A stretch of 64,000 nt of DNA from Heptranchias perlo (lineage: Eukaryota): contig NC_090340.1 of NCBI RefSeq assembly GCF_035084215.1, forward strand, positions 2,852,001 to 2,916,000. The letters run 5' to 3'. The translations under genes and the position numbers were made by a program. Shown in pieces: positions 9,878-46,820 of the stretch. The notes beneath the pieces are model-generated. The model saw nothing but the letters and a program-made list of their open reading frames with translations. It ran no database searches and was not told the DNA's origin. Within the stretch, counting starts at the first letter, position 1; every line of letters starts with the position of its first letter.

Positions 9878-11182
9878 CTGCAACAACGGAAAAGGGATTA
9901 GATTTTGGATAGGGTTGTCTTTTTTTTACATATCAGCGCTTCAGTGCTTTTACATAATCTGTAACTCATTCCCGCTATTTTTAAGTAACATATGTGGTTG
10001 CAATATTATATAAAATTATAAATATATGTTGCAGAATTATAGTACATTCTGAATTTCCAAACACCATTTTCTATAAAGTTGGAAACGGTTTTGTCACTTA
10101 GTACCGTTTAACTATATGACTGTTGACAAAAGTTTGGAATAAATCGGCAATCAATTACCTTTAAACACCTCTAAACCATATCTACACACGATGCACACAA
10201 AACTCTATTGCATTTCAGTTGCCGAATTGTACCAAGAGCTGTGCGGAGACTGGAGGGAGAGATAATTTCTCTCTGTTGTTTGCATAGAGCCGTTTATAAA
10301 ACGCGTTTACGACTTCGCAAATAAAACTCACAGAGTAAACCCCCTTCCCCCATTTATAGATTTTCCTGGTTAGACAATTATACGGATGTTTACTTTTTGA
10401 ACCCTAATAAAGCCTCTTGGAACGGGTAACATTGGAACATCATATTAAAATGAGTTTCCTGCTATTTGAGAAACAGGCAGCGAATTGCTCTAAATCAACT
10501 CCCCCTCATACCATTTCGACTTGCTTCGACATGACTACAATAAAGTTAACCTATATCTATTTTGCTATAATACTATGGCAAATATTTTACAATCAATTAG
10601 AAATCCCATATTTAAAGATATCCCGTGATTCTGCGATACTTTAGTAACACTTTCAAAGGAAAATAATCAGCTGTTCCAATGATATGTACGGGAATGTTTC
10701 TGTTTGATATCAAGGTGCAAATCCATCGCAACAATAAATGCCTCATTGACAAGCTGTATCGGATGAAAGTACAGTGGGGTATCGGAATAGAGGCTCTGGA
10801 TACGAATTAAGGAACTGAGAAACCAGGATTTTACTGTAATAAACCGATGAACCCTTGTTCAATATTAGATATGTTTAGATTATTCCACAAGTTACTAATA
10901 TTTTAAAATATGACAATTATTGTAGTAACTGATCATCAGCTCATCTGATAATACATAATCTGCAGTATGCCAGCTGTAGTCCGTGCTTTAACTGTGAAGT
11001 TCACCTTCTAAATGTACAATCCATTAATGATATGCACCAAGGTAAGTATATCTGCGTTAAAATAATCATGCGCCTGGACCATTTGTTTCGTATTTCCAGG
11101 GCTTCCGCAAAAGTTACTGCGAGATATCGGGTGAACTGCGGCAATTCTCCCCCATGGTCTGTAATTAGAAATTTTCCTACCT

Positions 11183-11292
11183 TTAAATGGGCGTTGATTT
11201 GAAATGGTCCACAATGATAATCGTCAGCAATAGAATCACCAGGAAGCACAATGCAAACCGAGGAATCAGAGAAACGTGAACATCAACAAAAT
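11183..11292 (-). CDS. Gene A: transmembrane exon with Arg and Asp and almost no tail (activating-type receptor)
   Basis: Not in the ORF track. Acceptor ttaattttag|, phase 1, reads DFVDVHVSLIPRFALCFLVILLLTIIIVDHFKSTPI*. TAA at 11183-11185 is followed by AG|gtagga (exon ends 11181). Aligns with the second TM exon at 52482-52596. Confidence 0.85.
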
Positions 11293-12312
11293 CTAAAATT
11301 AATGGAATACACACAAAGGATCTGATTATTATGGGTTCTATGCTGTAACTATAATTGCATGAAATAAATGAAAAGACGAATCAGGTACAGGAGTGAAATA
11401 AATTAATTCTGAATCGCCGTGTCACTACCTACATTAGGAGGGACATCTAGGATTTGGGTTTAGAACCAGCAATAAAACCGATTGTTTCTGTTCTAATTTC
11501 AGTTTCCTTTATATGAAACATTAACGACCGAGGTTATGTTAACTTTATTTAAGTTACTATCGAACGGTTCATCACTAGAAAGCTGTTCACATGAAATTCA
11601 CATTTTTTTTTACATAACGTCCGAAACTGCTCCATGTTCCGCTCTGTACCAGGTTCACTGGGTCGAAAACCAAATGTAAAATGTTCCAGAGAAAAAAGGT
11701 GTTTTCTCTTTAATTTTACCTCGGTGTAGCAGAAGAACCAATTAATATGCACCTGATTATCAGTTTATTCTTTGGAAGGCGAAATGGTTTATTTTGTTTT
11801 GTTTTTTCTGATGGAGTGAAGCATTCCAGATTAATCTGAGAAATAAAATTGCAGAGTAACTAATTTTATTTGGACGCATTTCACAGCGCTTAAAACCGGG
11901 GCGTCAACAATGTTGCTGGAATTAGCTAATTTTGAGTTATTCTGTGTAATTAATAAATCCACTTCGCAAATCGTTCTGTGTCGAGCTTTTTCTTTCCTTT
12001 CCACTGTCTGGCCCAGGATGTAGGTTTTGAGGAAGTTTTTTTATGTTGGAGAGAAACATAGCAAGGGAAATGATTTGCGAAGAGGATTTCCAGAGTGATC
12101 GAGCCTGTTGGGTGAATTATTTGCCATTGATCATAAAGCTCTGGGACAGCGGGCTACACAGCAGATCGGAGAGATGAGATCTGGGATTTCGGACTGGCGA
12201 AATTCTTGATGTGGCGTGGAGGAAAGCCACTGCTTTATAAGCAACGGCGTAAATTTTAATGTCAATTGGCCTAAAATACTTAATTGCGCCGCTAGGGATA
12301 TTTATTGCTCAC

Positions 12313-12624
12313 CTATTTTCCAATTCGGAGCTGTGAAGGTGACATTGGCTGGAATCTTGATCGTGGGGTGAGATACTTGACAGGTATAAACAGCCCCGTT
12401 CGGGACAGGTCGTGTGACTTTCAAAAAGCTGGAAAGTTCATACAGTCCTTCGGCATTCGGGTGCTTAATTGTCTTTATCCCGGTCGAAGTGCGAACGCTG
12501 TCCTTGTACCAACTTATGTTGATACTGTCTGGGTAAAAGGCAGCCGTTTTACACACAATAATTAAAATTCCGGATACATTACTCCCAGGTAATTCGGATT
12601 TAATACTCAACGGAATTGGAGGAA
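12313..12624 (-). CDS. Gene A: C1-set Ig domain exon
   Basis: Acceptor tttgttttgcag| and donor G|gtgagc; 312 nt, phase 1/1, in frame with the V exon. Translation VPPIPLSIK...IVCKTAAFYPDSINISWYKD...GLYELSSFLKV...YTCQVSHPT has the C1-set motifs CxxxxFYP, W and YTCxVxH. Confidence 0.92.
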
Positions 12625-12954
12625 CTGCAAAACAAATGAGAGACGGAGATGTTGCGACTCGTTTTTTTGTATAATTTAAGGTATTGAGGTAAGAATTTCT
12701 CCGTTATTATCTGCAATCACATAGTGCACCTGTCGGAAGATTTGTCTGTCCAGTGCTTCTTTTGCATATGGAAATAGCGATGTAAGAAAACTTCAAAAAC
12801 GTATTTAGGTATCTCTGTACATAGTGACCAGAGGCAATTTATCCCTATTATTCACCTTAAAGCGCTAAGAAATTGGCCTCGTTAACTTTATACAAGATAC
12901 ATCGAATATCTATTTAGAGAATCACTAGATCTGCATTATATACTGTATTGACCT

Positions 12955-13165
12955 ATTGTAAACAATTTTACAACACCAAGTTATAGTCCAACGATTTTAT
13001 TTTTAATCCCACAAGCTTTCGGGGACTTTCCCCTTCCTCAGGCGGAGGAAGGGGAAAGTCCCCGAAAGCTTGTGGGATTAAAAATAAAATCGTTGGACTA
13101 TAACTTGGTGTTGTAAAATTGTTTACAATTGTTAACCCCAGTCCATCACCGGCATCTCCACATCA
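12955..13165. mobile_element. Penelope-like inverted terminal-repeat insertion 1 with hammerhead ribozyme motif
   Basis: Perfect 85-bp inverted repeat (12955-13039 / 13045-13129), 5-nt loop, tail ...ccccagtccatcaccggcatctccacatca. TSD gtattgac(c/g)tat at 12945-12956 and 13167-13178. Minus strand reads CTGAGGA-A-GGGGA-AAG-TCCCC-GAAA-GCTT. Confidence 0.85.
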
Positions 13166-13210
13166 CGTATTGACGTATGGTATTGTTGATTATTATCTAT
13201 ATTTAAACTA

Positions 13211-13444
13211 TTGTAAGGAGTCGCACAACACCCGGTTATAGTCCAACAGCTTTATTTGAAATCACAAGCTTTCGGAGCTTTGGTCTTTCGTCAGGGATAT
13301 TTATGCTCACCTATTTTCCAATTCGGAGCTGTGAAGGTGACATTGGCTGACGAAGGAGCAAAGCTCCGAAAGCTTGTGATAACCTGGTGTTGTGCGACTC
13401 CTTACATTTGTCCACCCCAGTCCATCACCGTCATCTCCACATCA
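13211..13444. mobile_element. Penelope-like inverted terminal-repeat insertion 2 carrying a captured C1 exon fragment
   Basis: TSD tatttaaacta at 13200-13210 and 13445-13455. Inverted arms, with CTGACGA-A-GGAGC-AAA-GCTCC-GAAA-GCTT in the right arm and the same catca tail. Spacer 13293-13349 copies 12294-12351. Confidence 0.85.
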
Positions 13445-13616
13445 TATTTAAACTAATAAGGACCTTGTGAAACTTTGACACGAACATTTTGTTTCTTGTA
13501 AATATAATTTCCAATACATAATGAGGTAATTTTTCAGAAGAGAGTGAGAAATGTCATGATGTATTTTTAAAAAAGCATCGAGAGGAGGTTATCGTTGGAA
13601 AATCGTTTTATCCCTC

Positions 13617-13803
13617 GGGGGTTAGATCTTCATTATGTGCGATGATATAAAACGGGTGTTAGCGAATCGGCAGCCCGTTTTACATCTACCTCGATTTTAT
13701 TCATATTGACTTCAATGGAAATAAATTCCGGAGAGATGTAAAACAGACCGCCAATTCGCTACTATTCGTTTTACCCTAAGGCACAAAGTCAAGATCTATC
13801 CCC
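13617..13803. mobile_element. Palindromic MITE-like element
   Basis: Ends ggggttagatctt and aagatctatcccc; imperfect symmetry along its length around a central attgacttcaat. A related half copy lies at about 14861-14949. Confidence 0.65.
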
Positions 13804-15155: not shown

Positions 15156-15476
15156 CGTGGATAACAAGCTTTGACCCAGTTCCATTTGCAATCTGACCAT
15201 CCAGATGCTGCACTCCGCAGTAATAAACTCCAGAGTCCCCGGCGGTGACATTCAGGAACCGAAGAGAGGCCTCGTCTTTCTTTAAAGGAAGACATCGTAT
15301 TCTGCTGTCCAAACCTGACTGCAGAAACTCAGTTTCGCCGAGTTTCCACCAGTAAACATTTACATCGGAATTATCTGGAAAAACAGGGAACGCACAATAT
15401 AAAGTGATGTTTCCACCTGCGATCCTTTTGGCACGTTCAGGGGCTTGGGACACTCTGATCTGAATATCTGCAACAG
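15156..15476 (-). CDS. Gene A: V-set Ig domain exon, germline-joined VJ type (SIRP/NKp30-like)
   Basis: Acceptor tttctttctcacag| and donor G|gtaagt; 321 nt, phase 1/1. Translation (x)VADIQIRVSQAPERAKRIAGGNITLYCAFPVFPDNSDVNVYWWKLGETEF...DSGVYYCGVQHLDGQIANGTGSKLVIH has the B-strand Cys, C-strand Trp, DxGxYxC and a J-like GxG(S)xLxV motif in one exon. Confidence 0.92.
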
Positions 15477-33559: not shown

Positions 33560-36500
33560 ATGTCTAAGGAACCTGGTTGAATATTTTGAGGAGGTAACTA
33601 ACAGGTAGAAAGTAGCAATTCACCCGATCCAAGTGGGATGCATCCTCGGTTCCCGAGGGAAGTAAGGATGGAACTTACGGAGGCTCTGGCCACAATATTT
33701 CAGTCCTCCTTCGACATGGGGGTGGTGCTGGAGGACTGGAGGGATGCAAATGTTACACCCTGTTCAAAAAAGGGGAGAGGGATAAACCCAGCAATTACAG
33801 TCCAGTCAGCCTAACGTCGGTGGTGGGGAAGCTTTTAGAGCCAATAACCCTGGACAAAATTTATTGACACTTAAAAAGGTATGGGCTAATAAATGGGCAC
33901 GGAATTGTTAAAGGAAAATCGTGTTTGATTGGCTTGTTTGAGTTACTTAGAATTACACAGGATGCACACAACAGAAACAGGTTATTTGGCCCAACAGGTC
34001 GATGCCGGTGTTTATGCTCCACATGAACATCCTACTTCCCCACTTCATCTCACCCTATCAGCATATGCTTCTATTCCTTTCTCCCTCATATGTTTACCAT
34101 CTTCCACTTAAAATAATCTATGCTAGTCGGCTGAACTGCTCCATGTGATAGCGAGTTCCACATTTTAACACTCTCAGGGTAAAGAAGTTTCTCCTGAATT
34201 CCTTATTGGAATTATTAGTATTTATCTTATATTTATGGACCCTAGTTCTGGTCTCTCCCGCAATTGGAAATATCTTCTCTATGTCTACCCTATTAAACAC
34301 TTTCATAATCTTAAAGACCTCTATCAGTTCATCCCTCAGTATTCTCTTCCATAGAGACAAGAGCCCCAGCCTGCTCAATCTTTCTTGATAGCTATAACCT
34401 CTCAGTTCTGGTATGATCCTAGTAAATCTTGTTTGCAACTACTCCTGTGCCTCCGCTATATCCTGTTTTTTTAATATGGAGACCAGAATTGTTCGCATTA
34501 CTCCAACTGTGGTCTAACCAAGGTTCAATACAAGTTTAACATAACTTCTCTGCTTTTCAATTCTATCTCTGTAGAAATGAACCCCAGTACTTGGTTTGAT
34601 TTTTTATGGCCGCATTAACCTGCATCTCTACTTTTAGTGATTTATGTATCTGTACCCCCGGTCCTTCTGCTCATCTACCCCATTTAGATTCTTATTATCC
34701 AAGCAGTATGTGGCCCCCTTAGTCTTCCTAAACAAAAGGAATACATCATACTATCTATATTGAAATTCATTTTGCCAATTACACGTTCATTCTGCAAGTT
34801 TATTAATGTATTTCTGCATTCCTACTCGGTATTAACTATACTCCGCAATTTCCTGTTGTCGTTCTTTGATAAAGGAACGAAGAGGGTTGATGAGAGTGGT
34901 GCAGTTGTTATTCTGAATATGGACTTGATAGGCTTGTTAGCAAAATTAAACCCCACGACGTTAAAGGGACAGTGGCAGCGTGGATACAAGTTTGGGCAAG
35001 GGACAGAAAACAGAGAGTAGTGGTGAACGGTTATCTTTCAGACTGGAGGGAAGAATACAGTAATGTTGTCTAGGGGTCAGTATTACGACTACTGCTCGTT
35101 TTGATATATATTAATGAACTGGACTTAGGTATGGAGGGAATAATTTCAAAGCCGCAGATGAAACGAAACTCAGAAATGTAATAAGCAATGTGGAAGGTAG
35201 CAATAGAGTTTAGGAGGACCTAGACAGAGTGGTGAAATGTTCAGACACATGGCAGATTAAATTTGACTCAAAGAAGTGTGAAGTGATATATTTTAGTAGG
35301 AGGAATGCGAAGAGACAAAATAAACTAAAAGGTGCAATTTTAAAGGGGGTGCAGGAACAGAGGTGTATGGTCAAAAGTATTTCAAGGTGGCAGGACAAGT
35401 TGAGAAGGCTGTTAAAAAGCAGATGGGATCCTAGGCTTTATTAATAGAGGCTTATAATACAAAAGCAAGGAAGTTATGATAGAAACATAGAAACATAGAA
35501 AGTAGGAGCAGGAGTTGACCATTCATCCCTTCGATCCTGCTTCGCCATTCAATATGATCATGGCTGATCCTCTATCTAATTACGATATTCTCGCTCTCTC
35601 CCCATACCCCTTGATGCCTTTTGTGTCTGGAAATCTATCTAGCTCCTTTTTAAATATATTCAGTGACTTGGACTCCACAGCCTTCTGTGGTAGAGAATTC
35701 CACAGGTTCACCACCCTCTGAGTGAATAAATTTCTTCTAATCTCAGTCCTCAATGTCCTATCCGTATCCTGAGAATGTGACCCCTCGTTCTGGACCCCAG
35801 AGCCAGGGGAAACAACCTCCCAGCACCCAGTCTGTCTAGCCCTGTCAGAATCTTATATGTTTCAATGAGATCCCCTCTCATTCTTCTAAACTCGAGTGAA
35901 TACAGGCCAAGTCGACCCAATCTCTCCTCATATGACAGTCCTGCCATCCCAGGGAGCAAGTTATTATCTTAATGGCAAGAAACTGGAAAGTACTGCAGTA
36001 CAGAGGGATCTGGGGGTCCTAGTGCAAGAAAATCAAAAAGTTAGTATGCAGGTGCAGCAGGTGATCAAGAAGGCCAACGGAATATTGGCTTTTATTGCTA
36101 GGGGGATAGAATATAAAAACAGGGATGTATTGCTGCAGTTATATATTGTAAACAATTTTACAACACCAAGTTATAGTCCAGCAATTTTATTTTCAATTCA
36201 CAAGCTTTCGGAGGCTTCCTCCTTCGTCAGGTGAACGATGTTCACCTGTTCACATCGCAGTTATATAAGGTATTGGTGAGACCGCACCTGGAATACTGCA
36301 TACAGTTTTGGTCTCCATACTTAAGAAAAGACATACTTGCTCTCGAGGCAGTACAAAGAAGGTTCACTCGGTTAATCCCGGGGATGAGGGGGCGGACATA
36401 TGAGGAGAGGTTGAGTAGATTGGGACTCTACTCATTGGAGTTCAGAAGAATGAGAGGCGATCTTATTGAAACATATAAGATTGCGAAGGGGCTTGATCGG

Positions 36501-43050: not shown

Positions 43051-43645
43051 TTCTAAGAAGATTGGATATTTTATAGGGATAGGAACTAAAACGTGTAGAA
43101 TAAGAAAAGTACATTTGGGCAGTCCAGCAGAGCCTTTACAATAGGTTTTGTACAACTAGTTATATGATGGAGTCTGTATCATTGGCGAATCATTACAGGT
43201 ATATCATCCAACAAGGTTAACGTGTATGAAATCTTTTGCTGTTCAAAGAATAAAGTGAAGAACAATTACAAGGGATTAATTTAAGGTAATGACCTTTATT
43301 AAATATTCACTGAAATTTACGTTGCTCTCATGGTAATTGAATTGCCCCACTATCACACGAGAGACAATATTCCATAAAGCATTCTGTCCGAATCGAGAAT
43401 TTTCATTGCATTTATTTAGACGCCTCCAGCAGAAGTCGCTCGATACCGACAAGTCGCGCAAACTCTTCCACACAGTGGATCGTGAAGTAATTGTGCCCCG
43501 CCCAATTTTCCTTTATTTAGAGCAGCTAATTGAGCCCGTATCGAGTAAATAAACTGGTACATGCTTCGTCCATAAGATAATTGACCTGTGCAATGAAATA
43601 GGAAAGTCTCGGGCTTGTTGTCCTAACAACCTTCTCTATTAGGGG

Positions 43646-43919
43646 TTACCTCCTTCGTCAGGTGAACGAGGCGTCTAAATAAATGCAATGAAAATTCTCG
43701 ATTCGGACAGAATGCTTTATGGAATATTGTCTCTCGTGTGATAGTGGGACAATTCAATTATCATGATCAATTATCATTCAATTTTCACTTCGTTCACCTG
43801 ACGAAGGAGGTAGCCTCCGAAAACTTGTGAATTTAAAATAAAATTGCTGGACTATAACTTGGTGTTGTAAAATTGTTTACAATTGTCAACCCCAGTCCAT
43901 CACCGGCATCTCCACATCA
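43646..43919 (+). mobile_element. Penelope-like insertion 4 carrying a captured 99-bp local sequence
   Basis: TSD tctctattagggg at 43633-43645 and 43920-43932. Short inverted left arm (43646-43669) and full right arm ttcac-CTGACGA-A-GGAGG-TAG-CCTCC-GAAA-aCTT-gtgaa...catca. Spacer 43668-43766 is the reverse complement of 43328-43426. Confidence 0.87.
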
Positions 43920-44448
43920 TCTCTATTAGGGGAGCAGCGAACATCGTTAATTCATACATCTTGTTAATTCTTATATAGGGTCCCAATGTTTTATTACTTG
44001 TCGTCTTTTGAGTCAACAATTAAATGTTTTCTGGATGGGCCCAGCTAGTTGAGTACCTTTAATTCTAATAGTTTCTTTCGAATGATGATTTGCACCAATG
44101 GCTGATAAACTTTATTATCAGCATTTCTTTGAAATATATAACCATTAGGTAACAATATTCATGTACCATTGTGCATGAGATTAAACATATTCAATATTTG
44201 ATATTTAAAAAGAGTGTTTCTGTCCTTTGCATTTATTTGTTCAGAAGCCAGCAAGTGTTATCAATCTGTTTTAATGATTTCACCCCACAGATTAGCACCG
44301 ATTTATAAAATTAACTATTTAATTGTGCGTCATATGATGCAGGTAATGTATTTTCCACGATTATAAAATGCATCTTTGATCATTGTTGTTCACATAAGCC
44401 GGTTTTAATTTCCTTTCTTACCTTTAAACATTCATTCGATTGTCCTTG

Positions 44449-46199: not shown

Positions 46200-46820
46200 C
46201 ATAGAGAGTGAGCAAGAGAGAGGACGAGTGTTCATGGGAGGGGGAGAGAGAGAGGGTGAGTGTTGAGGGGAGGGAGTGAGAGAGAGAGGTCGAGTGTTGA
46301 TGGGAGGGAGTGAGAGAGAGAGGACGAGTGTTGATGGGAGTGAGTGAGAGAGAGAACGAGTGTTGAAGGGGAGGGAGTGAGAGAGAGAGAGGACGAGTGT
46401 TGAAGGGGAGGGAGTGAGAGAGAGAACGAGTGTTGAGGGGAGGGAGTGAGAGAGATAGCACGAGTGCTGATGGGAGGGAGTGAGAGGGAGAGGACGAGTG
46501 TTTATGGGAGTGAGTGAGAGAGAGAACGAGTGTTGAAGGGGAGTGAGTGAGAGAAACAGGTCGAATATTGAAGGGGAGGGAGTGGGAGAGGGGATGAGTG
46601 TTGAAGGGGAGGGAGTGAGAGAGAGGACTAGTGTTGAGAGGGAGGGGAGAGGGAGAGAGGTGGAGAGATGACGAGTACAGAATGGAGGAAGAGAGATAAG
46701 GAGTAGTCGATTATTGATGGGAGGGAGATGGATAGAGAGGGAGAGAACGAATATTAATGCAAGAGAAAGAGAGAATGAGGGAGAGAATGAATGTTCATAA
46801 GAGAGACAGAGGGTGAGAGG
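46200..46820 (+). repeat. GA-rich minisatellite (about 30-33 bp unit) decaying into low-complexity purine tract
   Basis: Repeated gagagagaggacgagtgttga(a/t)gggga gggagt units, clearest at 46215-46640. Confidence 0.85.

What the first reader, a model, noticed from the sequence alone, without database searches (positions are those of the whole stretch)
13293..13349. C1 exon end and its splice donor copied into a retroelement hairpin in the upstream intron
Seen: 13293-13349 matches 12294-12351 except for one deleted T. It includes the last codons of the C1 exon (ANVTFTAPNWKI) and the G|gtgagc donor, in the same orientation. Junctions share ag and ctg with the element arms. Inference: this puts a duplicate donor in the V-C1 intron, held in the loop of an RNA hairpin, which could seed a cryptic exon.
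Basis: partly seen in the sequence, partly recalled or inferred. Interest (0 to 1): 0.7.

Follow-up and report, generated by a model that had tools for sequence, protein, structure and literature searches.

The report
Exon end patched into Penelope hairpin
A small mirror-image jumping-gene insertion in an intron of a shark-type immune gene holds a 57-base copy of the next exon's end and its splice signal, most likely a patch copied from nearby DNA while the insertion was being sealed; it could encode a tiny extra in-frame exon, but that exon is predicted to be hidden by the hairpin and no RNA evidence for it was found.

Summary
Observation confirmed. 13293-13349 copies 12294-12351 (57 of 58 columns, one T lost; longest exact match 46 nt, at most 14 in 200 shuffles). 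The source is the conserved end of the C1 exon plus donor of a V-C1-TM, NCR3LG1-like gene. The copy sits where two head-to-head Penelope-like pLTR stumps meet, inside a 12-bp target duplication, with 3-nt microhomologies at both ends. A sister insertion in this window (43644-43919) holds a 99-nt inverted copy of nearby DNA with no Pfam match, so 2 of 4 family insertions here carry local fillers of 50 nt or more; a splice site need not be involved. Likely mechanism: a templated bridge made while the two cDNA ends were joined, as reported for human L1. New detail: the arm supplies a pyrimidine tract and AG, defining a 36-nt in-frame micro-exon (+12 aa). Its acceptor is predicted 91% paired (native acceptors 36-72%). 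Four putative RNA runs of one sample showed only the native C1-TM splice and did not cover the V-C1 junction, so use is untested. Verdict: a real insertion scar of a known kind; splicing effect unlikely (about 7%).

The parts
12294..12351 (-). Source segment: last 39 nt of the C1 exon (12313-12351) plus first 19 nt of the following intron with the native donor G|gtgagc
   Evidence: donor used in a putative RNA contig; exon end conserved in a shark ortholog
13293..13349 (-). Copied filler, 57 nt including both microhomologies (13296-13346 is unambiguous filler); one T deleted
13199..13210 (+). Left copy of the 12-bp target-site duplication
   Evidence: family D9, 100%
13444..13455 (+). Right copy of the 12-bp target-site duplication
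13212..13294 (-). Inverted, tail-less pLTR stump (left arm), starting at the CUGA core of a minimal hammerhead; stem II damaged by 2 substitutions
   Evidence: left boundary bridged by a DNA contig 13144-13232 with 0 differences
13347..13445 (+). Direct pLTR stump (right arm) starting at the same CUGA core, with a 23-nt internal deletion and a 37-39-nt one-sided tail
13311..13346 (-). Potential 36-nt in-frame micro-exon (would add ANVTFTAPNWKI between V and C1); use not shown
   Evidence: frame; predicted pairing; not covered
13347..13370 (-). Acceptor-like site (12 of 17 pyrimidines, then CAG) formed by the antisense of the arm's ribozyme stem II; predicted 9% unpaired
12313..12624 (-). C1-set exon of the host gene (312 nt)
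   Evidence: Pfam C1-set E 2e-12; boundaries
15156..15476 (-). V-set exon of the host gene (321 nt)
   Evidence: Pfam V-set E 2.7e-8; homologs; boundaries
11181..11292 (-). Transmembrane exon of the host gene
   Evidence: RNA joint 11292/12313; open frame to the stop
12955..13166 (.). Neighbouring, separate insertion of the same family: 85-bp identical arms that abut with no host filler, own 12-bp duplication (11 of 12)
43644..43919 (.). Sister case: 26-nt left arm, 99-nt inverted copy (43668-43766) of 43328-43426, right arm, 13-bp duplication
   Evidence: no Pfam match in the two ORFs over the source

Best explanation
The 57-base segment is a copy of the C1 exon end and its donor lying between two head-to-head Penelope-like end repeats inside one 12-bp target duplication, and it was most likely written as a templated bridge while the insertion was being sealed, with a likely negligible effect on splicing. 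Steps: (1) inferred, from in vitro work on a lizard Poseidon element: the element's endonuclease nicks both strands about 12 bp apart and both 3' ends are extended on pLTR RNA from two start sites about 37 nt apart. (2) Shown: the two arms end at the same base of the ribozyme core and only one has the tail. (3) Inferred: the two new ends could not pair, so one end used a 3-nt match to a sequence about 850 bp away (about 630 bp if the neighbouring insertion is younger), copied about 51 nt and left on a CTG that pairs with the other end's CAG. The template was more likely chromosomal DNA (about 0.65) than the gene's unspliced RNA (about 0.3); the polarity allows both. (4) Shown: the arm plus filler spell acceptor, 36 nt, donor, in frame. 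(5) Predicted: the arms pair and bury the acceptor within 50-85 nt of further transcription, so the exon is skipped.
For: Single target duplication around arm-filler-arm. 3-nt overlaps at both junctions; chance about 0.003 under a simple model, counting the family's upstream C on the left. Direction of copying: the 12.3k segment is part of an exon 62% identical to a shark ortholog, through the copied residues. Recurrence: 2 of 4 family insertions in the window have local host fillers of 50 nt or more, one direct and one inverted; other junction letters between arms in other copies (table 5c). Filler not amplified with the arms. Element anatomy matches PLE descriptions (PMC8557442 passages; PMC3846280 passages; PMC4209133; PMC11167929). 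L1 precedents for local templated DNA (bioRxiv 2024.08.27.596794; PMC11702581) and for nearby pre-mRNA (PMC10191854). Acceptor 0.09 unpaired against 0.28-0.64 for three native acceptors; exonising Alus have less stable structure (PMC2639721 abstract).
Against: The filler has 0 substitutions in 57 nt while the arms differ at 3 of 60 positions plus a 23-nt deletion, which would fit a filler younger than the arms (my arithmetic: P about 0.06-0.25, not significant; the arms may also come from two RNAs). The L1 templated insertions typically come from within 15 bp, much closer than here. No PLE reverse transcriptase or endonuclease was tested. In three DNA runs one contig runs unbroken through the source although a 46-nt exact repeat should break it, the right flank was hardly covered (depth 0.8) and no listed piece bridged the filler. 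The cryptic donor is about as accessible as the native one (0.24 vs 0.28-0.32), and the acceptor is free (0.43-0.46) until the second arm is transcribed.
Confidence: 0.72

Rival explanations
1. The insertion first landed as a perfect palindrome like its neighbour; the tip later broke (cruciform or fold-back cleavage) and was repaired with a patch templated from the exon end.
For: The neighbouring insertion has arms ending at about the same base with no filler. The filler shows fewer substitutions (0 of 57) than the arms (3 of 60). That palindromes are fragile is recalled knowledge, not tested here.
Against: The 43k case has a 99-nt filler with a left arm of only 26 nt, short for a cruciform. 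Position 13347 is a common family end: 17 and 15 contigs in two DNA runs leave the stretch there, so symmetric ends need no later break. Neither arm is resected past the core.
Confidence: 0.13
2. The scar is the same, but the 36-nt unit is spliced in at a meaningful level, giving an isoform with a 12-residue linker (with an N-V-T sequon) between the V and C1 domains, gated by the hairpin.
For: Acceptor with 12 of 17 pyrimidines (native acceptors 11-14) and a donor identical to the native one at -3..+6; frame stays open, 258 vs 246 residues from the V exon on. Only consensus-type donor match in the intron. The gene is spliced in one putative RNA run.
Against: Acceptor and branch zone predicted 91% and 96% paired. 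Exons under about 50 nt are poorly recognised without enhancers (recalled). No sign of selection: single recent copy, frame kept automatically because the microhomology is the exon's own CAG.
Confidence: 0.07
3. The 57-mer travelled with the element (transduction from a source copy that carries it) or derives from a paralogous V-C1 gene elsewhere.
For: PLEs can carry host DNA between pLTRs (PMC3846280 passages). Immunoglobulin-superfamily genes often have paralogs (general knowledge); the whole genome could not be searched.
Against: 57 of 58 identity to the copy 1 kb away, including intron. Filler-bin depth is about four orders of magnitude below the arm bins (the tool warns that depth is no copy number). 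The source region shows flat single-contig depth and no other letters.
Confidence: 0.04
4. Assembly artefact at a palindrome-rich spot.
For: Short-read contigs did not bridge the filler and ran unbroken through the source; only 0.77-0.80 of sampled words were held by the four DNA runs.
Against: Clean target duplication, microhomologies, a one-base difference and the same architecture at 43k. The left boundary of the insertion is bridged by a contig with 0 differences at single-copy depth. Graph cleaning next to very high-copy repeats would be expected to drop such short links (inference).
Confidence: 0.04

Closest known systems
Head-to-head inverted pLTR insertions of endonuclease-bearing Penelope-like elements (PMC3846280 and PMC8557442, passages; PMC11167929, parts 1-2 of 4)
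   Same: Inverted 5'-truncated copy next to a direct pLTR, one-sided 30-40-bp tail, short target duplication around the whole unit, AT-rich target, minimal hammerhead in the pLTR.
   Different: No ORF here (pLTR stumps only). In the passages read the inverted junction is a palindrome or overlap; host capture there is of long spacers or genes between pLTRs, not a short patch traced to DNA within 1 kb of the target.
L1 templated insertions (bioRxiv 10.1101/2024.08.27.596794 passages: 22 cases, typically under 250 bp and within 15 bp; PMC11702581 passages: 3 cases from DNA near the site)
   Same: Short host segment from near the target co-inserted during retrotransposition; microhomology at junctions.
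   Different: Different element class; source about 850 bp away; germline-fixed in this assembly; placed between two mirror-image arms rather than next to one cDNA.
Co-insertion of nearby pre-mRNA by L1 strand switching (PMC10191854 passage, one case)
   Same: The filler spans an exon-intron border and its polarity is what copying of the unspliced transcript from the left arm would give.
   Different: Here DNA and RNA templates cannot be told apart; the 43k sister filler comes from sequence with no detected coding match.
Exonisation of antisense Alu elements (PMC2639721, abstract and outline only)
   Same: An antisense retroelement supplies a pyrimidine tract and AG (the Alu detail is recalled); structure lowers the chance of use (abstract).
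   Different: Donor and exon body come from the host's own exon; the silencing stem is built into the same insertion; use not shown.

Membership tests
Endonuclease-bearing Penelope-like element insertion | ORF with telomerase-like RT and GIY-YIG endonuclease | not testable with these tools
   The insertion is about 235 nt of end repeats and filler; no genome is held to look for the autonomous partner.
Endonuclease-bearing Penelope-like element insertion | Minimal type I hammerhead in the pLTR (CUGAnGA, extra base, G-C closing stem II, GAAA, palindromic 15.2-16.2) | tested here: met
   Read by eye against the description in PMC4209133: complete in the 36k sister copy, with a 5-bp stem I. In the finding's own arms the core is present but the 5' strand of stem I is cut off. 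Rfam gave no hammerhead hit on 12800-13600 at E up to 5.
Endonuclease-bearing Penelope-like element insertion | Inverted 5'-truncated copy at the 5' end (head-to-head) | tested here: met
   Arms 13212-13294 and 13347-13406.
Endonuclease-bearing Penelope-like element insertion | 30-40-bp tail on one end only | tested here: met
   39 nt (2 shared with the duplication) here, 37 nt in the neighbour.
Endonuclease-bearing Penelope-like element insertion | Short target-site duplication around the unit | tested here: met
   12 bp here; 11-13 bp in the other three family insertions of the window.
Templated insertion at a retrotransposition junction | Short non-element segment identical to DNA near the target, inside the target duplication | tested here: met
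Templated insertion at a retrotransposition junction | Microhomology at the switch points | tested here: met
   AG(G) and CTG
Templated insertion at a retrotransposition junction | Made in the same event as the insertion | tested here: inconclusive
   Architecture fits; divergence of filler vs arms does not decide; no empty or filler-less allele could be examined.
Exonised (cryptic) exon | AG/GT borders with a pyrimidine tract | tested here: met
Exonised (cryptic) exon | Junction reads showing inclusion | tested here: inconclusive
   0 of 9 listed joints join it to V or C1, but the V exon had depth 0 in all 4 runs.

The most novel reading that the evidence does not exclude
Head-to-head Penelope stumps are one-step exon makers: whichever strand is transcribed, the first arm is antisense and ends in a pyrimidine tract plus CAG exactly at the filler, so any captured host donor completes an exon, and the insertion's own stem keeps it silent until mutation (such as the 23-nt deletion and 3 mismatches already here) loosens it. 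At this locus that would give an in-frame 12-residue, glycosylatable linker between the V and C1 domains of an NCR3LG1-like immune protein.
Probability: 0.07. Interest if true: 0.6.

Novelty: new member of a known kind. Interest (0 to 1): 0.24.

Why it matters
As a scar it adds one clean example that Penelope insertions are closed by joining two cDNA ends, with a local patch when they cannot pair. Because the patch spans an exon-intron border in the polarity that RNA copying would give, it belongs to the subset that can test DNA versus pre-mRNA templates genome-wide. If the micro-exon were used, it would show a route from an insertion accident to a new in-frame, structure-gated exon in an immune gene. 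Neither point is shown, and the pattern recurs in this window and in earlier scan notes, so the single case is of modest value.

Tried and rejected
Whole-genome count of the 57-mer and of family fillers: no genome is held. Empty site in relatives: no eukaryote genomes in the tools; the one run from a second organism covered only the repeat arms (depth 0 over 12270-12925). Expression search: no listed holder is on record as RNA; four runs guessed to be RNA, all one sample, were laid: one covered parts of C1 and the C1-TM joint, none covered the V exon, so absence of micro-exon joints is no evidence. DNA lay (three runs of one sample, possibly the assembly's own): no empty-site joint among the 15 joints shown, 89 more not shown, so heterozygosity is not excluded. 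Metagenome scan with a short arm motif: 3 hits, all matching the window over only 20 nt and lying in prokaryote-like ORF-dense DNA, taken as chance. Rfam on 12800-13600: 22 matches, all below gathering score, mostly miRNA-precursor models fitting any long hairpin; rejected. Immunoglobulin or T-cell receptor constant exon: rejected; the V exon includes its own J-like strand, lies 2.5 kb from C1, and the 4 homologs found are V-C1 proteins named NCR3LG1-like (2) or Ig-lambda-like (2) by automatic annotation. One search's translation used V and TM borders off by one and was redone. Selection for a splice site: a random 57-mer within 2 kb of the target covers one of the six mapped splice sites 4% of the time, which is not rare given many insertions. 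Paper searches with no usable result: hammerhead+Penelope+palindrom+shark, 0 papers; LINE-1+local sequence+template switch+pre-mRNA+insertion, 0; Penelope+inverted+filler DNA, 1 paper on DNA transposons, listing only; exonization search, listing only.

Full report
Observation. The segment 13293-13349 aligns to 12294-12351 at 98.3% over 58 columns on the same strand, with one T missing. It has no other match below E=1 in the 64-kb window. The longest exact match is 46 nt against at most 14 in 200 shuffles. The shared ag and ctg at the junctions are present.

Host gene. On the minus strand there is a V-set exon (15476-15156), a C1-set exon (12624-12313) and a transmembrane exon (11292-11181), with an open frame of 246 residues from the V exon to the stop. 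A search with the V exon against longer proteins found 4 proteins among 289 candidates, all from sharks, 58-67% identical, automatically named NCR3LG1-like (2) or Ig-lambda-like (2). The C1 exon is 62% identical to one of them through the copied residues, so the exon is the source and the intronic piece the copy. One run guessed to be RNA has a contig joining 12313 to 11292 at GT-AG: the native donor is used.

The element. The copy sits between an inverted arm (13212-13294) and a direct arm (13347-13445), inside a perfect 12-bp duplication (13199-13210, 13444-13455). Both arms begin at CTGACGA. Less truncated copies in the window show this to be the core of a minimal type I hammerhead as described for Penelope-like elements (read against PMC4209133 parts 1-2 of 4); Rfam did not detect it. 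Only the right arm has a 37-39-nt tail. An inverted truncated copy, a one-sided 30-40-bp tail and a short duplication are the described PLE insertion structure (PMC8557442 passages; PMC3846280 passages). In vitro, the lizard Poseidon protein cleaves and extends both strands and starts reverse transcription at two sites that bound the tail (PMC11167929 parts 1-2 of 4). No RT or endonuclease could be tested here, so PLE membership rests on 4 of 5 listed features.

Is capture special? The window holds four insertions of this family. The neighbour at 12955-13166 has abutting arms. The one at 36145-36256 has a single arm and a short scramble of its own end. The one at 43644-43919 has a 26-nt left arm, a 99-nt inverted 98% copy of 43328-43426, a right arm and a 13-bp duplication; the two ORFs over that source have no Pfam match. 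So 2 of 4 carry local host fillers of 50 nt or more, one direct and one inverted. Contigs from public runs show further head-to-head joints at many positions, with other short letters between the arms. In three DNA runs of one sample the filler bin has depth 32-66, single-copy flank 9-15 and the adjacent arm bins 400,000-630,000; depth is no copy number, but the filler is plainly not a fixed part of the family. A random 57-mer within 2 kb covers a mapped splice site 4% of the time. Earlier AI notes of this scan describe the same pattern in this and other genomes; they are unchecked and I count them only as a sign of recurrence.

Mechanism. Shown: geometry, duplication, 3-nt overlaps at both ends (chance about 0.003 in a simple model; the left one is 3 nt only if the family's upstream C is counted). 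Inferred: both nicked ends were extended on pLTR RNA to about the same 5' boundary (17 and 15 contigs in two runs leave the stretch at 13347). Both then ended in CAG and could not pair. One end annealed to the exon region about 850 bp away, copied about 51 nt and ended on CTG, which pairs with the other CAG. Extension from the left arm could have used the minus DNA strand or the unspliced transcript; extension from the right arm only DNA. Human L1 gives precedents for both: templated DNA insertions (22 cases, typically within 15 bp, bioRxiv 2024.08.27.596794 passages; 3 cases, PMC11702581 passages) and one co-inserted nearby pre-mRNA (PMC10191854 passage). I favour DNA (about 0.65) because the sister filler has no detected gene and germline transcription of this gene is unknown. 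Against the same-event reading: the filler has 0 substitutions while the arms differ at 3 of 60, weakly favouring a later repair at the palindrome tip.

Splicing. On the transcribed strand the right arm ends in a pyrimidine-rich tract and CAG (12 of 17 pyrimidines; native acceptors 11, 13, 14), followed by 36 nt and the copied donor. Inclusion would keep the frame and add ANVTFTAPNWKI. The copied donor is the only match to the donor patterns scanned in the 2531-nt intron. Folding predicts the acceptor 0.09 unpaired at 37 and 20 C, against 0.28-0.64 for the three native acceptors; the donor is 0.22-0.24, near the native 0.24-0.32. In truncated transcripts the acceptor is 0.43-0.46 unpaired until the second arm appears and 0.09 once about 85 nt beyond it are made. 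Exonising Alus have less stable local structure than non-exonising ones (PMC2639721 abstract). The RNA test failed for lack of coverage: 0 of 9 listed joints join the micro-exon to V or C1, but the V exon had depth 0 in all four runs.

Results against or unexplained. In three DNA runs a single contig crosses the source unbroken although a 46-nt exact repeat should split it, no listed piece bridges the filler, and the right flank has depth under 1 (43,886 pieces not shown, and the tool filters some records). The left boundary of the insertion is bridged with 0 differences. Graph cleaning beside very high-copy repeats is my explanation, untested; an assembly error keeps about 4%.

Comparison and novelty. 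It works like an L1 templated insertion placed at the inverted junction of a PLE. I found no paper describing short local fillers in PLE inverted junctions (searches; open-access library only), while host capture between pLTRs is described. A 2026 preprint on PLE-derived retrozymes (part 1 of 5 and passages) concerns tandem units, not this structure. I file it as a new member of a known kind, interest 0.24; the in-frame, stem-gated micro-exon is the only feature that could raise it, at about 7%.

Noticed in passing
window 43633-43932: Second arm-filler-arm insertion of the same family: 99-nt inverted copy of 43328-43426, a roughly 23-nt scrambled junction, 13-bp target duplication.
   Followed up: yes
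window 12955-13166: Separate insertion 33 bp from the finding's target site, with 85-bp arms that are 100% identical to each other but about 11% different from sister copies; a long perfect RNA hairpin in the same intron.
   Followed up: partly
window 36135-36267: Single tail-less inverted arm inside a CR1-like LINE piece, 11-bp duplication, junction made of short repeats of the element's own end; its minimal hammerhead is complete.
   Followed up: partly
window 13618-13803: Older 92-bp inverted repeat (72% complementary, 2 nt apart) in the same intron, unrelated to the Penelope arms by BLAST.
   Followed up: no
window 11181-11292: The host gene's stop codon lies 2 nt before a GT donor at the end of the TM exon, so any further exons would be 3' UTR; the predicted cytoplasmic tail is very short.
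   Followed up: no
table 5c, joint 13162 to 12954: Contigs in two putative RNA runs show an element end followed by 12 letters and then the start of another inverted arm, as expected if a second copy inserted into the first one's 12-bp target.
   Followed up: no
window 46200-46820: Degenerate 34-nt purine-rich tandem array.
   Followed up: no
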